Origin: an uncultured delta proteobacterium
GTDB taxonomy: Bacteria; Desulfobacterota; Desulfomonilia; UBA1062
Direction: 5' to 3'
DNA length: 64,000 bases
Assembly: GCA_963785235.1 (NCBI GenBank)
Contig: CAWAUM010000005.1
Coordinates: 512,001-576,000, forward strand
Below the pieces are notes generated by a model. It saw only the letters and a program-made list of their open reading frames with translations, had not been told where the DNA came from and did not search any database. The translations under genes and the position numbers were made by a program. This document shows, piece after piece, positions 49,344-64,000 of this stretch; within the stretch, counting starts at the first letter, position 1, and every line of letters begins with the position of its first letter.

Positions 49344-49731
49344 GAGCCCGTGTGATACTTTGTCCCAAGATGACCCAGTCCCAAATAGAAGTGGCCAAGA
49401 AACTGGCAAATAAGTGGAACCTCAATAATGAGACATAGCTGGCTGGCGCCATGAATATTCCAGAACAGTCATACGGAATAGAGTATATCCATGAAATAAG
49501 GCTAACCCTCCAAAAGTTGGACCCTCCTGCATATTCATCGGGAAAGATAATGTGTCAGAGACAACGAACTGAGTTGATATTTCAAAACCATAGAGTACAT
49601 GCCAGGGATGACGCTTTGGTATGAAGCGACAAGTTTCATATGTTTCAACACAAGATCATCAGTATCTAAAGATTTTAAAACCAAGATTAATTTGAATAAT
49701 CTTAGATAATTGCAAACTGTTGATCGTGGCA

Positions 49732-51592
49732 GAGACCGTTGAAAAAGCTGTTTTTGAAACGAAAGATTTCCCGGTACTTTGGTTAGTTGGTTAGTGTACT
49801 ACCGATAGTCGCAGATTTTGGGTTTTATCGGACCATTCTTTGGTTTCTTATCTCAACCTTCATATCTTTCTCTTCATGCAAAGCCATAATTAGCTATCTT
49901 TCCGATGTTGTGTACCATGCAGTACAGCAACCACTGGATATTCACCTTGATCTTGCCCCTTACTGTGAACCGATCAAGCCGTTTGTGGGTGCGGATATTT
50001 GCGAACACCGGCTCTACTATGGCCATCCTCTGTGGGTAGATCCTGCGTCCCTTCTCACTCTCGATCTTCTCTATCATAAGCTTGGTGAGGTTAATACCAT
50101 CCGAGCCGATGGGAATGTTCAAGGTCTTTGGTCCACGGCCATTGCCATATATGCACTTACCTCTTAACATACAACCGCTGCAGTCCTGTTCTTGTGCACC
50201 ATATATTCGATAGAGCGTACCAGTACAGCGATGGCTCTTTACCTTAAGACCTAGTTTTTTGCCGTTGGGGCATTCGTACTGATCGCTCTCCTCATCATAG
50301 TGGAAATCCTCCAATGCATAATGGGTCCTGATCGAGCGCCCCTTCCTTCCCTTAAACCGAGGATCTCTTGTACGGAATCTCTTATCAGGTATGTAGGCAT
50401 CCATCCCTTCATCCATACACTTCTGGATATTCGCTTTGCTGTGATAGCCGCTGTCAGCAGCGAACATCGCCCCATTGAAGTAATCCCCGGGAAGACCTAT
50501 CTCCTCCACGTTTTCCTTGGCCCCATCCACCATCGGAGGAACAAGGTCATTATCATGGCCAGTACCGAATGCCTCCGCATGTACGATCACCTGTGTCTTG
50601 GAGTCCACTAGCGCTTGACCGTTATATCCCTGGATTGTCCCATTGGATGTCACCATTTTCGAAGACTCGTTGTCTGTGATATTGCTCTTGATCTCCTTTC
50701 CATTCACCCCGAGACGCTCCCCGTTCTCCTTAAGCCATGCCTCGATACGATCAGCCTGCTTCTTCAGTTTTTCGATCTGTCTGCATCGGTAGGAACGATT
50801 ATCAGGGGGAGTTGAATCATCATCTTCCTTCCGGTCTTCCTCTTCCTGTTCTGTCAGCAGTTCATTCACCTTCTCTTCGAGCTTCTGACGCTTCGCCCGT
50901 AACTCAGAAACCGTCCTGCTCCACTGCGGAGATGCATTGCATGATAGCTTGCACCCGTCCAATGCGAAGAACGTTCCCCCGAGTAGCTTCATCTCTTCGC
51001 AAACAAGCAGTACATCCCGAAACAGCGGCAGAATCTCATCCTTCATGGAACTCACGAATGTGGAGATCGTGCTGTGGTCAGGGTACTGCCCGCAAGAAAG
51101 CGCCATGAATACTACATTCTCATGGCAGGCCTGTTCGATCTTCCTCGATGATGTCAGACCCCGTGAATACCCCAGCAATATCACCTTAAGCAGTATCCGT
51201 GGATCGTATGCACGCCGTCCTGTCTCATCATTCCTGTATTTTTCATCGAACAGGCTCATGTCCATACGCTCATCCACAAGCGTGTAAATCGCATACTCCA
51301 GACTCCCGGGCATGATCTGTTCCTTCAACCCTACCGGTATCAGCATGTCCTGTGCGTATGTGTAAGGTTTATACTTTGCCATGGTACCCTCTCGCTTCAG
51401 GAATAGGGAGATTCAGAAAGAAATCTTTCCCGTTAAGACAATAACCTTATATCACATAATATATTGATAATAAAGATCTAATTTACTTTTTTATGAAATA
51501 ATTGATCTGTTTAGGTCTTCTGAACTCGGATTCTTTTTTAAATAAATGATCTGCTTCTATCCTTTGCGTTAGGAGGCTTTTTCAACAGTTTC
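49732..51592 (-). mobile_element. IS1182-family insertion sequence
   Basis: IRs GAGACCGTTGAAAAAGC / GCTTTTTCAACAGTTTC (15/17); flanking GCA direct repeat. Confidence 0.88.
49874..51382 (-). CDS. IS1182-family transposase
   Basis: YDPRILLKVILLGY..SSRKIE, PDHSTISTF, LDG, GYN.Q, ADSGY, VEPVFANI. Confidence 0.93.
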   Translation of the reverse strand: MAKYKPYTYAQDMLIPVGLKEQIMPGSLEYAIYTLVDERMDMSLFDEKYRNDETGRRAYDPRILLKVILLGYSRGLTSSRKIEQACHENVVFMALSCGQYPDHSTISTFVSSMKDEILPLFRDVLLVCEEMKLLGGTFFALDGCKLSCNASPQWSRTVSELRAKRQKLEEKVNELLTEQEEEDRKEDDDSTPPDNRSYRCRQIEKLKKQADRIEAWLKENGERLGVNGKEIKSNITDNESSKMVTSNGTIQGYNGQALVDSKTQVIVHAEAFGTGHDNDLVPPMVDGAKENVEEIGLPGDYFNGAMFAADSGYHSKANIQKCMDEGMDAYIPDKRFRTRDPRFKGRKGRSIRTHYALEDFHYDEESDQYECPNGKKLGLKVKSHRCTGTLYRIYGAQEQDCSGCMLRGKCIYGNGRGPKTLNIPIGSDGINLTKLMIEKIESEKGRRIYPQRMAIVEPVFANIRTHKRLDRFTVRGKIKVNIQWLLYCMVHNIGKIANYGFA

Positions 51593-51779
51593 GCACGTAA
51601 TCTCCAGTTTCTCAGGGCTTAAGGGACCGATGATTCTATTTCAGAATCAACCCTGTAATTCCTTTTTTTTATGACTTGACAGGGGAGAGGACCATTATTA
51701 ATGGTAAACCATATTGTGCATATTGTGGGGGATGGGAAAATACCCCTGCGTCCTTTTTGTGCAATATTGGAGGGTTCCT

Positions 51780-61162: not shown

Positions 61163-61616
61163 CCCCCTTTTCTTACTTTTCTCTGTTAAGTATTATCTTT
61201 AAAACACCAGGTAAAACCAATCCGGCAAATTTGCCTCCCTTCATTTATAATTTTGACATAAACCTTCTGAATCTAGGGGTTCATAGTGGTGTAATGAAAA
61301 CAAAAAGGCATACAAGGAATCATTCAAAAGAGACACTCAATAGCATCAACAAAGAATCTATATGCAAATAATTAGACTTCTTAAAAATACTCGGTCACCA
61401 TGAAAATCAATAGCAAGGGTTGAAATAAAATACGAAAGTATAGCCATAGGGAGAACCATAGATTTCGCGCCAGGATCGGTACTTTATCCTCTAGCCTGAA
61501 AGGCATAGATCTCGTTACAGATCCAATACACACTCATTAGAAGCGCTCTAGCCAAAAAAACTAAGTTCTTTTAGATTGTGAACCGCATTTCCTCAAATTC
61601 CATCTATTAAGTAAGC

Positions 61617-61958
61617 ATGAGGAAAATACTGTTAGTAAGTGATGATAAACGCACCCAGCTACTTCTCAATGAAGAGTTTGAAGATGGGTATCAAGTATTG
61701 ACTGTGTCTAATAGGAAAGAAGCGCTTTCCCTATTAGCAAAAAATTCTAAAAAGCCAGACCTCGTTATCCTTGATCTCAGCGTACCTGAAAAAAGTAGGA
61801 TTGATACTCTTGGCCATATATTAAAGCAAAAGTTTAAATTACCCGTGATTATATTTCCAGCTTATAGCATCTTTAGGAAAGACACATTGAGAACAGAAAT
61901 TGATACATACAGGGTTAGATCTTCAGATATTTCGGCGCTAAGAAAAAAAGGTCCATGA
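61617..61958 (+). CDS. Single-domain response regulator, degenerate
   Basis: KILLVSDD, PDLVILD; switch Thr and conserved Lys positions read P and R. Confidence 0.7.
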   Translation: MRKILLVSDDKRTQLLLNEEFEDGYQVLTVSNRKEALSLLAKNSKKPDLVILDLSVPEKSRIDTLGHILKQKFKLPVIIFPAYSIFRKDTLRTEIDTYRVRSSDISALRKKGP

Positions 61959-62584
61959 CCTGATATAGAGCTGAAGTGTAGATCATGTGTCATACCTGAC
62001 ACTCATATCTGGCCTGATTTCATTATAGATTATATTTTGAGATTATCTGTTTTCAGTCCTTACAAAAGTGTCCGTCTATCGCAGGGATCAACGCTATAGG
62101 CAAACCGATGATTATGGTTAAAAGCATTCAGTAATCAGAAACCACTGTTCATGGCAGAGACTGTTGCCCATTAAAAGGTTCTGTCAATGAGAAAATAGTT
62201 CTCCCATTACAAGAGCCGTTATCTCTTGCAGAGTTTACCATTGCGCCAGCACGGACGATTCTCCTTCTCTCCGATCTCGCATCAGTTATTTCTTTTTCTT
62301 GGTTACGATTCATTTATCCTGAACCGCACCAGTCACCCATCGGGATCAAGGTTGCCAGGTATGGCTGTTGCGAAGCGGAGAGACATAAGGAATCTCGGAG
62401 CGAAGAAACAGCCATACCTGCGTAACCCCTGGCCTGATATCCAGGCCCCAGAAAATCGTCTGTTCCCTGGTATGTCCAACTTATTTCTCAAAACCCTTGG
62501 CTCTATGTCCAAACTCGTATGGTTCATATCAGAGGCGGATCAGAAAGTGATTATCCTTCCCTGCTGAATAATCTTAAATTTAGA

Positions 62585-62657
62585 GGCATAGGGTGGTGGA
62601 TCAATCAAAAAACAGTGGTTGTCGGCCAACAGTCTCCCCGAACTCACCACCCCAGCC
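62585..62657 (-). ncRNA. Predicted bridge/seekRNA target-binding loop
   Basis: Stem GGGTGGTG/CACCACCC enclosing GAGACTGTTG and GTTTTTTGAT, matching the left and right insertion junctions. Confidence 0.75.
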
Positions 62658-62660
62658 ATT

Positions 62661-63686
62661 CTATGAGAACAAGGCCTCCTCCTTGAAAGGAACCTGATCT
62701 CTCATGATGTAATAGCAAGCACGGGAAAGCTTGTTTGCCAGTGCCTTCCTCGCAATAATAGGATTCGTTTCCCGTGACTTGCGCTGATAGTACGCATTTG
62801 CCCGTTCACTGTAGATTCTGGAAAAATTACTAGCTTCCATAAATGCCCAGGCCAGATACTTGTTCCCGTTCTTTTTGTTGCCAACCCCTTTCTTCTTTCC
62901 ATTGCTGGTGTGCACACTGGAGACACACCTGCAGTACGAGGAAAAATTGCCAACACTAGGGAATCGGGATATATTCCCTACCTCCAGCATGATGGTCATC
63001 GCCAGGATATCTCCGATACCGATGACAGTAAGCAGATTCTCAAACCCAGAGCGTATCTTTAAAACCTTCCGCACTGCCTTTTCTATGCTCGTTATGTGGT
63101 GGCCCAGGAAATCAACGATGTTCGTACTCACCTTCCCAGAGAACAACAGATGTTCGTCGGTGAAGATCTTCTTCAAATCATCAGGGCACAGCTTCTTGAT
63201 CCCTGCTCCATTTATTCGCATCCCCGTGTTCCGTTCAATCATTGATTGGCATGAGAGGAGATTGGCTGTCCTGTGCCGCATCAAAAACGCTCTCTTCCTC
63301 AGCAGATCTCTTACCGGTCTGTCTTCCTTGGGGTAGATGTACCCTTCTGGTAGAATACCAAGGATCAGAAGTTGAGCTAGCCAGAATGCATCATGACGGT
63401 CGTCTTTATACTTGATCCCTTCATATTGTTTGATCGCTGACGGATTCGCTAAATGTAAGCAACCATATCCCGCTTCCATCAACCCGTCGACCAGCCAGTA
63501 CCAGTTGTATGTGCTCTCAACAACGATCCCCTTCACCTCATCATGGTAAGGCTCCAACGCCTGTAGTATCTCACCAAGGTCATTATTGTGCCTATTCTGG
63601 TAAACCCTTCTTTTCGATTCACCTTCCATGATTCCCATGTATGTGTTCCTTGAATGCAGATCCAACCCAACATACAGCTCTCCCAT
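62661..63686 (-). CDS. IS110-family DEDD recombinase/transposase
   Basis: VGLDLH, VVEST, KDDRHDA, IGIG, SRFPS, TSNGK, GNKYL. Confidence 0.95.
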   Translation of the reverse strand: MGELYVGLDLHSRNTYMGIMEGESKRRVYQNRHNNDLGEILQALEPYHDEVKGIVVESTYNWYWLVDGLMEAGYGCLHLANPSAIKQYEGIKYKDDRHDAFWLAQLLILGILPEGYIYPKEDRPVRDLLRKRAFLMRHRTANLLSCQSMIERNTGMRINGAGIKKLCPDDLKKIFTDEHLLFSGKVSTNIVDFLGHHITSIEKAVRKVLKIRSGFENLLTVIGIGDILAMTIMLEVGNISRFPSVGNFSSYCRCVSSVHTSNGKKKGVGNKKNGNKYLAWAFMEASNFSRIYSERANAYYQRKSRETNPIIARKALANKLSRACYYIMRDQVPFKEEALFS

Positions 63687-64000
63687 AAGATGCCTCCTCT
63701 TTCTTTTTATCCGTTAACGGCTCTTATGATTTGTAGAGTGAACCTTTTAGATGGCTATCAAAAAACCTTCACAGGATGGAACGTGATAAAAATCGACATC
63801 ATAGAATGCTCTACGATGGAAGATCTTTTATCGGGGCTTGTGTTTTGATGGTTTAAATTTGGTGGTTTTTGAGATCGCCGGACTTTTTCAACAGACTCGC
63901 ATGTAACATATATTCATACTGTAAATTATCTATACTAATACCCATTGTGTTTATGAGTATGTCTTGAGTATTCCATTAAAGCAGCATGAAAGGGCTCATG

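What the first reader, a model, noticed from the sequence alone, without database searches (positions are those of the whole stretch)
62157..63898. RNA-guided IS1111-type element whose guide appears to target the inverted repeat of IS1182-family elements
Seen: the element splits an IS1182-type IR (GAGACTGTTG at 62157-66; ATCAAAAAAC at 63757-66). Just after the transposase stop, the minus-strand RNA forms a stem (62591-98 with 62645-52) enclosing GAGACUGUUG (62627-36, identical to the left junction, 10/10) and GUUUUUUGAU (62604-13, reverse complement of the right junction, 10/10). An outward TTGACA lies about 17 nt from the predicted circle junction. Known: IS110/IS1111 recombinases use bridge/seekRNAs with left and right target guides, and IS4321/IS5075 target Tn21-family IRs. 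Inference: this element is programmed against GAGACTGT-T(G/C)-AAAAA, the end of another IS family, so it parasitises IS1182 ends; the intact IS1182 at 49732 carries near-matching sites.
Basis: partly seen in the sequence, partly recalled or inferred. Interest (0 to 1): 0.9.

Follow-up and report, generated by a model that had tools for sequence, protein, structure and literature searches.

The report
RNA-guided IS aimed at IS1182-type ends
This is an intact jumping gene of the RNA-guided IS1111 type whose own guide RNA spells out the terminal repeat of a different jumping-gene family (IS1182 and its miniature derivatives), and it sits exactly inside such a repeat: a new target for a known mechanism.

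Summary
The element is an intact IS1111-type (IS110-family) insertion sequence.

A structured RNA lies directly after the transposase stop. Its scaffold recurs in 142 of 161 related loci. Its two loop strands covary with the right and left flanks (0 of 2000 shuffles each).

In the window the guides read GAGACUGU(UG) and GUUUUU(UGAU). Together they specify GAGACTGTTG|AAAAAC, the outer 16 bp of the IS1182-type terminal repeat on a ~150-bp MITE.

The only other full copy (86% nt identity, same genus) sits at the same position and in the same orientation of another MITE's repeat.

I also found a second conserved loop (62329-62341). It matches the element's right end plus two target bases.

Mobility, RNA expression and more insertion sites could not be tested.

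This is a new member of a known kind, with one odd detail: the target core is CA instead of the family's TG.

The parts
62167..63760 (-). Whole IS1111-type insertion sequence, 1594 bp. It starts TGATAGCC... (left end at 63760) and ends ...TTTTAATGGG (right end at 62167).
   Evidence: Alignment with the 86%-identical copy L014 stops within about 10 nt outside these limits. Intact MITE repeats lack ATC and have five A. TGAT is the family-wide left terminus.
62661..63686 (-). Transposase gene, 341 aa (DEDD/RuvC-like domain plus the IS110 C-terminal domain).
   Evidence: PF01548 and PF02371. NF033542, 162 bits against a cut-off of 140. A family profile hits IS621 transposase 8wt6 at E=6e-16. D9, E57, D96, D99 and S261 are invariant in the 22-sequence alignment; four of them can be read as aligned to identical IS621 residues in the printed alignment (D9, E57 and D99 to D, S261 to S). 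The IS621 residue numbers and the D96 match are my own working and recall. dN/dS is 0.079 against L014.
62585..62659 (-). Target-binding RNA module (seekRNA / target-binding loop): an outer stem enclosing an internal loop that carries both guides and a small GG/CC hairpin.
   Evidence: Fold z-score -3.5. On 46 family members, 13 of 15 consensus pairs show compensatory changes; 91.7% of cells are paired against 74.2% in shuffles and 31-50% when slid.
62627..62636 (-). Top-strand guide GAGACUGU-UG. It is complementary to the right flank CA-ACAGTCTC (the outer 10 bp of the split repeat, 62157-62166).
   Evidence: 10 of 10 match. Across the family, this loop strand against right flank +3..+10 averages 5.39 of 8, versus 2.89 for mismatched pairs; 0 of 2000 shuffles reach this.
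62604..62613 (-). Bottom-strand guide GUUUUU-UG-AU. GUUUUU equals the left flank (63761-63766). UGAU equals the first four bases of the element and is constant in the family.
   Evidence: Across the family, this guide against left flank -7..-1 averages 4.22 of 7 versus 2.08; 0 of 2000 shuffles reach this.
62329..62341 (-). Second conserved loop motif GAUGGG-UG-AC-UGG (donor-binding-like). AUGGG equals the last 5 nt of the right end, UG is the core, and AC equals target bases +3,+4.
   Evidence: The motif was found in 127 of 142 loci. The dinucleotide equals flank +3,+4 in 91 of 101 loci, and in 28 of 32 where it is not AC; 0 of 5000 shuffles reach this.
63740..63753 (-). Left subterminal inverted repeat CATCTAAAAGGTTC, preceded by the terminal extension TGATAGC.
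   Evidence: Read. It pairs with 62169-62181.
62169..62181 (-). Right subterminal inverted repeat GAACCTTTTAATG, followed by a 2-nt extension.
   Evidence: Read.
62182..62187 (-). Outward-facing TTGACA (-35-like), 15 nt from the right end.
   Evidence: TTGAC at this spacing was part of the pattern that located right ends in 100 loci. After end-joining, the family left end would supply GATAAT at 16-nt spacing; the window has GATAGC.
62157..62166 (+). Outer 10 bp of the MITE's interrupted IS1182-type terminal repeat.
63761..63898 (+). Rest of the MITE. It starts with the inner part of the split repeat (AAAAACC...) and ends with the intact opposite repeat (63883-63898). It is flanked by a GCA duplication (62154-56 and 63899-901).
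   Evidence: Other MITE copies lie at G000 C12:208-355, C2:265295-265441 and C1:402387-402533.
49732..51592 (-). Intact IS1182-family element whose terminal repeats are one mismatch from the guide-specified site.
   Evidence: The repeats were read.

Best explanation
The feature is an intact IS1111-type (IS110-family) insertion sequence, 62167-63760 on the minus strand. It encodes a DEDD/serine recombinase and, in its 494-nt 3' non-coding region, a guide RNA.

The first RNA module lies right after the stop codon. It is a stem enclosing an internal loop. The 5' strand of the loop (GAGACUGU, then UG) pairs with the top strand to the right of the insertion point. The 3' strand (GUUUUU, then the constant UGAU) pairs with the bottom strand to the left of it. 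Together they specify GAGACTGTTG|AAAAAC, the outermost 16 bp of the terminal inverted repeat shared by IS1182-family elements and their MITEs in this genus. The element inserts in one orientation between bases 10 and 11 of that repeat, without duplication, and thereby splits that end.

A second conserved loop about 320 nt downstream reads the element's own right end (AUGGG), the core (UG) and the first two target bases beyond the core (AC). This mirrors the way UGAU in the first loop reads the element's left end. The layout resembles the two-loop, 'handshake' logic of bridge RNAs.

Shown here: the anatomy, the family-wide covariation of guides with flanks, and two independent insertions at the same site type.

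Inferred: that the RNA is made and bound, that a circular intermediate forms, and that the element is still mobile.
For: Protein:
- PF01548 and PF02371; NF033542 above its cut-off.
- A family profile hits IS621 transposase at E=6e-16. D9, E57, D96, D99 and S261 are invariant in 22 of 22 aligned relatives.
- dN/dS is 0.079 against the L014 copy.

Architecture:
- The non-coding region is 74 nt upstream and 494 nt downstream.
- There are subterminal repeats with asymmetric terminal extensions, and the transposase is 341 aa. These are the IS1111 features listed in PMC11187229 (sections read).

RNA module:
- It recurs in 142 of 161 loci.
- The consensus structure has 13 of 15 pairs with compensatory changes; 91.7% of cells are paired against 74.2% in shuffles.

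Guides:
- At a fixed register the two loop strands covary with the flanks. Top-strand guide: 5.39 of 8 versus 2.89. Bottom-strand guide: 4.22 of 7 versus 2.08. In each case 0 of 2000 shuffles reach the observed value.
- The top-strand match lies 5' of the bottom-strand match, the order reported for IS1111 seekRNAs.

Window:
- 10 of 10 and 6 of 6 (+4 constant) matches to its own flanks.

Second copy:
- L014 / G104 (same genus; 86% nt and 89% aa identity) is at the same position and in the same orientation of a different MITE's repeat, with one guide-target mismatch.
- A Logan contig in run X3 starts matching exactly at 62157 and carries 194 unlike letters before that point (record 13).

Second loop:
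- The dinucleotide equals target +3,+4 in 91 of 101 loci; 0 of 5000 shuffles reach this.

Target abundance:
- The repeat motif occurs 5, 14 and 18 times in G000, G104 and G106, the three genomes of the genus with this IS lineage. It occurs 0 to 2 times in the other 12 genomes of the genus.
Against: - Only two full copies of this lineage could be examined.
- The element is single-copy in a 13-contig genome, although a perfect unoccupied site exists at C12:341-355. Five unoccupied sites that match the 15-base search pattern exactly exist in G104.
- The -10 that end-joining would create is poor in this lineage: GATAGC, against GATAAT in relatives.
- The target's core dinucleotide is CA. In 95 of 105 relatives it is TG, and it is CA only in the window and L014. 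All guide positions of this element still encode UG.
- A 265-nt 5' fragment, 90% identical, in G106 has an unrelated left flank. Its RNA region is lost, so it cannot be scored.
- An unrestricted search with the top-strand guide showed no enrichment: 16 of 99 own scores of at least 10 of 13, against 103 of 990 permuted. The signal appears only at the fixed register next to the right end.
- No top-strand-type donor guide was identified in the second loop.
- Relatives are not independent, so shuffle counts overstate significance.
Confidence: 0.85

Rival explanations
1. The element is a fossil. It once used these guides, but this copy no longer moves. It would then be a static scar in one MITE, not an active parasite of IS1182 ends.
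For: It is single-copy in G000 despite a perfect free site and several one-mismatch sites. G104 has one copy and 14 repeat motifs. The junction -10 is weak, GATAGC. No contig bridges an empty site and none shows a circle junction.
Against: The ORF is intact with all catalytic residues. dN/dS of 0.079 over dS of 0.79 shows long-term purifying selection. Both guides are identical in the two copies, while 6 other positions of the roughly 72-nt module differ. The two copies sit in different MITEs, so the lineage moved after they diverged.
Confidence: 0.25
2. The natural target is the MITE family (or any site containing CTGTTGAAAAA) and not IS1182 elements as such. The resemblance to IS1182 ends would matter only because the MITEs borrowed those ends.
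For: Both full insertions are in MITEs of about 150-190 bp. MITE repeats (..AAAAAC) fit position 16 of the guide, while the intact IS1182 repeats read ..AAAAAG and have one further mismatch. Paired motifs at MITE-like spacing far outnumber the IS1182 copies found in this genome.
Against: Across the family the bottom-strand guide usually reads only 5 flank bases, so position 16 may not count. L014's real site has one mismatch, the same distance as both IS1182 repeats. A 1.9-kb spacing of two perfect motifs in G121 (C2:1384-3268), the size of the window's IS1182, may be a full-length element with perfect sites; I did not check it for a transposase gene.
Confidence: 0.3
3. Target choice is made by the protein, for example by recognising the repeat as DNA, and the loop matches are coincidental or passively copied from flanks.
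For: No RNA or binding data exist for this element, and no RNA run holds the stretch. The A-rich 10-mer alone is not very improbable: 4 of 100 shuffles give two copies.
Against: Both loop strands covary with the flanks family-wide at a fixed register, and the handshake dinucleotide does too. The RNA scaffold is conserved with compensatory changes. A seekRNA requirement and reprogramming have been shown experimentally for IS1111 relatives (PMC11187229, sections read).
Confidence: 0.03

Closest known systems
IS1111-family seekRNA elements ISEc11, ISKpn4/ISPst6 and ISPa11 (Siddiquee et al. 2024, PMC11187229; abstract and sections 4, 6, 9, 10 and 13 read)
   Same: A DEDD transposase of 330-350 aa, a long non-coding region downstream of the gene, subterminal repeats with asymmetric extensions, and a short structured RNA with a top-strand match 5' of a bottom-strand match. 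Insertion is in one orientation without duplication. Natural retargeting happens by replacing the loop segments, as with ISEc11 and ISXne4.
   Different: The target is the terminal repeat of a DDE-type IS family and its MITEs. The targets named in the parts of that paper I read are a linear site, attC sites and REP sequences. The protein is distant: phmmer finds no solved relative, and the best named hits are 'ISGsu4 family' at 44.5% identity. The residue after the conserved serine is Asn in the family consensus, not the Gly of the SG motif.
IS4321 / IS5075 (Partridge & Hall 2003; only the title was seen, in a reference list; the paper is not held; details are recalled)
   Same: IS1111-family elements that insert at one position and in one orientation inside the terminal inverted repeat of another mobile element, splitting it.
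   Different: Their host repeat is the 38-bp repeat of Tn21-family (Tn3-type) transposons. Here it is the roughly 16-bp repeat of IS1182-type elements and MITEs in an uncultured Desulfomonilia lineage.
IS621 bridge RNA (Durrant et al. 2024, PMC11208160, passages read; the handshake guides of Hiraizumi et al. 2024 are recalled, with only the abstract seen in a listing)
   Same: Two loops. One reads the target and one reads the element's ends. Each carries extra bases that match the other partner: here UGAU in the first loop and the covarying dinucleotide in the second. A shared core dinucleotide is also present.
   Different: The RNA is 3' of the gene. The strand order of the guides is reversed. 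The two loops are about 250 nt apart. I found only one donor-reading strand. The window's target core (CA) does not equal the donor core (TG).
REP-targeting IS110/IS1111 elements (ISPa11, ISPpu9; PMC12288879 abstract seen in a listing)
   Same: Most relatives of the window's element carry guides for ..AGAyC|TG|ACCCC... In L088 and L172 this is the inverted terminal sequence flanking an open frame with a YHV..RG motif; the L088 frame was confirmed as a Y1 (IS200-like) transposase. This is a REP/RAYT-like situation.
   Different: The window's lineage has exchanged both guides and now reads a DDE-transposon end.

Membership tests
IS110 family, IS1111 group | DEDD (RuvC-like) N-terminal domain plus the IS110-type C-terminal domain | tested here: met
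   PF01548 (E=1.8e-9) and PF02371 (E=7.2e-14). NF033542, 162 bits against a cut-off of 140.
IS110 family, IS1111 group | Catalytic D-E-D-D and the C-terminal serine | tested here: met
   D9, E57, D96, D99 and S261 are invariant in 22 of 22 aligned relatives. In the printed IS621 (8wt6) alignment, D9, E57 and D99 align to D and S261 to S. The IS621 numbering and the D96 match are recalled or worked out by me, not printed.
IS110 family, IS1111 group | Conserved GL-P----S(T)G motif around the serine (PMC11187229, section read) | tested here: inconclusive
   Only the serine is kept. The window reads C-R-C-V-S-S-V-H-T-S-N-G, and the family consensus reads LSNGK. The paper describes this as a conserved motif, not as a defining one.
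IS110 family, IS1111 group | The longer non-coding region lies downstream of the transposase gene | tested here: met
   494 nt downstream (62167-62660) against 74 nt upstream (63687-63760).
IS110 family, IS1111 group | Subterminal inverted repeats of about 11-13 bp with asymmetric terminal extensions (7 or 6 left, 3 right) | tested here: met
   CATCTAAAAGGTTC pairs with GAACCTTTTAATG, with one indel. The extensions are 7 nt on the left and 2 nt on the right as I draw them, or 6 and 1 if CCAT is counted. The asymmetry is met; the exact right-hand length depends on how the imperfect repeat is drawn.
IS110 family, IS1111 group | Site- and orientation-specific insertion without target duplication | tested here: met
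   2 of 2 full copies lie between bases 10 and 11 of the repeat, in the same orientation, with no duplication. The sample is small.
IS110 family, IS1111 group | seekRNA with the top-strand match 5' of the bottom-strand match | tested here: met
   The order is as described in PMC11187229 section 9.
IS110 family, IS1111 group | A circular intermediate with abutted ends that creates a promoter; the RNA co-purifies with the transposase | not testable with these tools
   A -35 TTGACA lies 15 nt from the right end. No RNA run holds the stretch, and no contig shows a junction.
Bridge RNA (IS621 type) | Two internal loops, each with two guide strands (target and donor) plus handshake bases | tested here: inconclusive
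   The target loop with two covarying strands is met. The second loop has one strand matching the right end, the core and a covarying dinucleotide. No second donor strand was identified.
Any Rfam family | A match to a curated covariance model | tested here: not met
   0 matches at E up to 1 in 61500-64000.
IS1182 family (the target's owner) | An IS1182-type DDE transposase bounded by the repeat in question | tested here: met
   NF033551, 312 bits against a cut-off of 270. DUF772 and DDE_Tnp_1_6 are present. The repeats at 49732 and 51592 match the MITE repeats at 13-15 of 16 positions and carry the same GCA duplication.

The most novel reading that the evidence does not exclude
This lineage may have been retargeted from REP/RAYT-type repeats to the ends of a DDE insertion-sequence family by choosing a site whose core (CA) is the reverse complement of the family's TG core.

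All four constant guide bases (UGAU) can still pair with the uninterrupted repeat (CAAC on top, GTTG below) through rU-dG and rG-dT wobble. The 5' guide's constant UG pairs with CA by Watson-Crick.

If this reading is right, IS1111-type recombination tolerates any Y-R core and does not need donor and target cores to be identical. The observed cores are TG 95, CG 6, TA 2 and CA 2 of 105. The junctions would then keep TG on the left and CA on the right, as seen in both copies.
Probability: 0.3. Interest if true: 0.65.

Novelty: new member of a known kind. Interest (0 to 1): 0.5.

Why it matters
It adds a target class to RNA-guided IS1111/IS110 elements: the terminal repeat of another insertion-sequence family and its MITEs. 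One mobile element would disable the ends of another by base pairing.

It comes with a large natural series. About 140 related loci share one RNA scaffold but carry many different guide pairs. This series defines which positions are programmable (8 nt plus 5 nt), which are constant, and where a handshake dinucleotide lies in a second loop.

The CA-for-TG core offers a concrete test of how strict core identity is. That question matters for the design rules of bridge/seekRNA recombinases as genome-editing tools.

No paper held in the library mentions IS1182 together with IS1111 in this sense: 6 papers hold both terms and none is on targeting, judged from titles and abstract openings only. Supplementary tables of the two 2024 papers, which list targets of ISfinder entries, could not be seen and might already include such a case.

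Tried and rejected
- Rfam search of 61500-64000 at E up to 1: no match.
- phmmer of the single protein against solved structures: no hit at 0.01. A family profile was needed.
- My first automatic end-finders misplaced many right ends, and one script ended in an error after printing. I replaced them with a pattern that requires TTGAC plus TAATGGG with at most one mismatch. This dropped 42 of 142 loci from the right-flank test and makes the 'last 5 nt' count near-constant by construction.
- Some left ends called by the TGATAATCAT pattern are spurious (for example L062-L064, L102, L104, L106, L116 and L122). I left them in the counts, which lowers the observed mean.
- The unrestricted search of 850 nt downstream with a 13-nt top-strand probe showed no enrichment: 16 of 99 against 103 of 990. 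In that run the hairpin anchor was also set wrongly for part of the loci.
- I looked for a second (top-strand type) donor guide beside the second loop. I found only a same-sense resemblance in the window that does not covary in L014, and rejected it.
- The long hairpin at about 62345-62425 as a donor guide: rejected for the same reason.
- No RNA holder was listed for the stretch.
- Logan contigs of four runs were short. None bridged an empty site or showed abutted ends, and the three listed joints lie in conserved coding parts and probably come from other organisms.
- The metagenome scan gave no relative above 66% aa identity.
- The phylum sample of 401 genomes gave no further copy.
- A script to parse the second IS lineage printed nothing because its filter was too strict. 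I read the loci directly instead.
- The Partridge & Hall 2003 paper is not held. What I say about IS4321/IS5075 beyond the title is recalled.
- Supplements of papers were not opened.
Full report
**What is in the sequence.**
- The minus strand of 62661-63686 encodes a 341-aa protein with the two Pfam domains of IS110-family transposases (PF01548 and PF02371).
- It scores above NCBI's cut-off for 'IS110 family RNA-guided transposase'.
- The single sequence finds no solved structure. A profile of 22 relatives hits the IS621 transposase (8wt6, E=6e-16) and ISCro4.
- D9, E57, D96, D99 and S261 are invariant in all 22. In the printed alignment, D9, E57 and D99 align to D and S261 to S of IS621. The IS621 residue numbers and the D96 match are my own working and recall.
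- The residue after the serine is Asn in the family consensus, not the Gly of the SG motif.

**Where the element ends.**
- Uninterrupted copies of the host repeat in the same genome read GAGnnTGTTGAAAAA(C/G), with five A and no ATC. These are MITEs at C12:208-355, C2:265295-265441 and C1:402387-402533, the other end of this MITE at 63883-63898, and both ends of the IS1182 at 49732-51592.
- In relatives the left end begins TGAT, mostly TGATAATCAT.
- The element is therefore 62167-63760 (1594 bp: TGATAGCC...TTTTAATGGG). It is inserted between bases 10 and 11 of the repeat, with no duplication.
- It has subterminal inverted repeats (CATCTAAAAGGTTC and GAACCTTTTAATG) with a long left and a short right terminal extension. 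It has 74 nt of non-coding DNA upstream of the gene and 494 nt downstream.
- These are the features that separate the IS1111 group from the IS110 group (PMC11187229, sections read; PMC11208160, passages).

**The host of the insertion.**
- The split repeat belongs to a MITE of about 150 bp (62157-62166 plus 63761-63898), flanked by a GCA duplication.
- The window's intact IS1182-family element has the same duplication and near-identical repeats (NF033551, 312 bits against 270).
- The genome holds one intact and two decayed IS1182 copies. It has 32 matches to the repeat pattern with up to one mismatch, against 5 for the reversed control.

**The RNA, studied through relatives.**
- I collected 160 related loci (80 from genomes; 80 from metagenomes) and added the window.
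- In 142 of 161 (141 in a first pass) the stop codon is followed by the same module. It consists of an outer stem, a short closing helix, an internal loop whose two strands are variable, and a tiny invariant GG/CC hairpin between them. The 3' strand ends in a constant UGAUUGG.
- On 46 non-redundant members, RNAalifold gives 15 pairs, 13 of them with compensatory changes.
- 91.7% of cells pair, against 74.2% in shuffles and 31-50% when the partners are slid.
- The window and L014 even carry a compensated C-G to U-A change in the closing helix.

**Do the loop strands read the flanks?**
- An unrestricted search with the 5' strand showed nothing: 16 of 99 against 103 of 990.
- I then located ends with conserved end motifs. 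This dropped 42 of 142 loci on the right side and 28 on the left. A fixed register then emerged.
- The reverse complement of the 5' strand matches right-flank positions +3 to +10. The mean is 5.39 of 8 in 97 distinct pairs, against 2.89 when guides and flanks of different loci are combined. 0 of 2000 shuffles reach the observed mean.
- The 3' strand is identical to left-flank positions -5 to -1, followed by UGAU, which equals the first four bases of the element. The mean is 4.22 of 7 against 2.08 in 110 distinct pairs, again with 0 of 2000 shuffles.
- Relatives are not independent, so these counts overstate significance. However, many separate guide/flank classes agree (ACCCC..., CCAATAGC, ACTTTTCC/GCTTTTCC, CAAATATC, CCACGAGC).
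- A top-strand match 5' of a bottom-strand match is the order reported for IS1111 seekRNAs.

**The window's guides.**
- At these positions the window carries GAGACUGU(UG) and GUUUUU(UGAU).
- Its right flank, in element orientation, is CAACAGTCTC: 10 of 10, with 8 of 8 in the variable part.
- Its left flank is GGTTTTT: 6 of 6.
- Together the guides specify, on the + strand, GAGACTGTTG|AAAAAC, which is the outer 16 bp of the IS1182-type repeat.
The other four are constant across the family and match the element's own end.

**A second, independent insertion.**
- The only other full copy of this lineage is in a genome of the same genus (L014 = G104; 86% nt and 89% aa identity).
- It lies in a different, much more diverged MITE, in an unrelated neighbourhood. 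It is at the same position and in the same orientation of that MITE's repeat (GAGGCTGTTG|AAAAACTC).
- Both guides are unchanged, so there is one guide-target mismatch at a real site.
- dN/dS between the two transposase genes is 0.079 at dS of 0.79, so the lineage has been under selection while moving.
- In run X3 a short Logan contig begins to match exactly at 62157 and has 194 unlike letters before it. This looks like a third site with the same outer half-repeat, but it is a single contig at depth 3 and I could not read it.
- A 265-nt 5' fragment (90% identity) in G106 has an unrelated left flank. Its RNA region is gone, so it neither supports nor refutes the reading.

**Distribution.**
- Within the class (122 genomes), full copies occur only in G000 and G104. 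None was found in a further sample of 401 genomes of the phylum.
- The exact repeat motif occurs 5, 14 and 18 times in G000, G104 and G106, and 0 to 2 times in the other 12 genomes of the genus. So the IS lineage is found where its target is common. The numbers are small and the genomes are related.
- Free sites remain: a perfect one at G000 C12:341-355, five in G104 that match the 15-base pattern exactly, and both IS1182 repeats at one mismatch.

**A second loop.**
- About 250-330 nt after the stop, 127 of 142 loci carry CCUUGAUCC(C/U)GAUGGG-UG-NN-UGGUGC. In the window this is at 62329-62341.
- AUGGG equals the last five bases of the right end, UG is the core, and NN equals the target bases +3,+4 in 91 of 101 loci.
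- NN equals those bases in 28 of 32 loci where NN is not AC. 0 of 5000 shuffles reach this.
- In the window NN is AC, and the target reads CA-AC.
- This mirrors UGAU in the first loop, which is the left flank followed by the core and the first two bases of the element. It resembles the target loop / donor loop / handshake logic of IS621 bridge RNAs. That logic is partly recalled and partly.
- I did not find the second donor-reading strand.

**An oddity.**
- The first two bases of the right flank are TG in 95, CG in 6, TA in 2 and CA in 2 of 105 loci. The two CA cases are the window and L014.
- TG also starts the element, so relatives have a shared core, as IS621 does. Here the target core is the reverse complement of the donor core.
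- All observed cores are Y-R.
- The constant UG of the 5' guide pairs with CA by Watson-Crick.
- The constant UGAU of the 3' guide can pair with the uninterrupted repeat's bottom strand (complement of CAAC) through U-G, G-T, A-T and U-G.
- This is my inference and is untested. It predicts heteroduplex G-T cores and the TG...CA junction pattern seen in both copies.

**Promoter.**
- TTGACA faces outward 15 nt from the right end.
- In relatives, end-joining would place GATAAT 16 nt downstream. In the window and L014 the corresponding hexamers are GATAGC and GATACC.
- That is a weak -10 and one reason to keep 'fossil' as a live rival.

**Context of the family.**
- Most relatives carry guides for ...AGAyC|TG|ACCCC...
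- In 5 of 56 loci with 200 nt or more on both sides, an inverted copy of the joined target lies nearby, against 0 for the reversed control. One of the five is L014; the window itself misses the threshold by one mismatch.
- In L088 and L172 the two copies bracket an open frame with a YHV..RG motif. The L088 frame is a Y1 (IS200-like) transposase (PF01797). This is a REP/RAYT-like situation, a known target class for IS110/IS1111 elements.
- The window's lineage has replaced both guides, which is natural retargeting of the kind described for ISEc11 and ISXne4.

**Comparison and verdict.**
- The element works like, and meets the tested defining features of, an IS1111-group element with a seekRNA.
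- Inserting into another element's terminal repeat has a precedent in IS4321/IS5075 and Tn21-family transposons (title seen, details recalled).
- What is new is the target: the ends of the IS1182 family and its MITEs. The CA core and the clear two-loop anatomy in this subfamily are also new as far as I could check.
- I found no paper linking IS1182 ends to IS1111 targeting (6 papers hold both words, none on this, judged from titles and abstract openings).
- Expression, circle formation and mobility remain untested.

Noticed in passing
G000 C12:145384-146235 (locus L002); also L192 (G105) and L193 (G106): A second IS1111-type lineage of the same subfamily is present in this genus, about 60% aa identity in L192 and L193. 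The G000 copy matches in two overlapping pieces at 43% aa identity, so it is probably frameshifted. Its guides differ and its second-loop dinucleotide is CC. The flanks read ..TCG|TGAT... and ...ATGGG|TGCCA.., and in L192 they are partly palindromic.
   Followed up: partly
L088:1320-2291 (-) and L172, upstream of their IS copies: The commonest target of the subfamily (..AAGryy|TGACCCC..) is the inverted terminal sequence bracketing an open frame with a YHV..RG motif. The L088 frame is a Y1/IS200-like transposase (PF01797, E=9e-13); L172's was not scanned. So most relatives appear to aim at REP/RAYT-type repeats.
   Followed up: partly
window 62154-62156 and 63899-63901; 49729-49731 and 51593-51595: The MITE and the intact IS1182 are both flanked by a 3-bp GCA duplication in a similar context (..TGGCA|...|GCAYGTAA). 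This suggests a shared transposase and a preferred site.
   Followed up: partly
L190 = G106:C23:48848-49111: A 265-nt 5' fragment of this IS lineage (90% identity) breaks off inside the transposase gene. Its left flank (..CATCTACCC) is unrelated to the IS1182 repeat.
   Followed up: partly
L064 (downstream of its IS), L068 and L125 (right ends): Some relatives carry tandem duplications of the right terminus (..TTTTAATGGG|TGCCTTTTAATGGG|TG..). In L064, a second partial non-coding region with its own right end lies directly after the first. These may be products of aberrant or repeated recombination at the ends.
   Followed up: no
window 62345-62425 (-): A long, nearly perfect hairpin (about 14-bp stem, GGUAUGGCUGUU...AACAGCCAUACC) lies between the two guide loops. 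It is conserved in position but not in sequence in L014. Its function is unknown.
   Followed up: no
G121:C2:1384-3268 and several pairs spaced about 108 bp (G104, G106) or about 133-148 bp (G000, G107, G121): The repeat motif occurs as pairs at two MITE sizes and at 1.9 kb, the size of the window's IS1182. So the target family may have at least two MITE derivatives in this clade. I did not check the 1.9-kb pair for a transposase gene.
   Followed up: no
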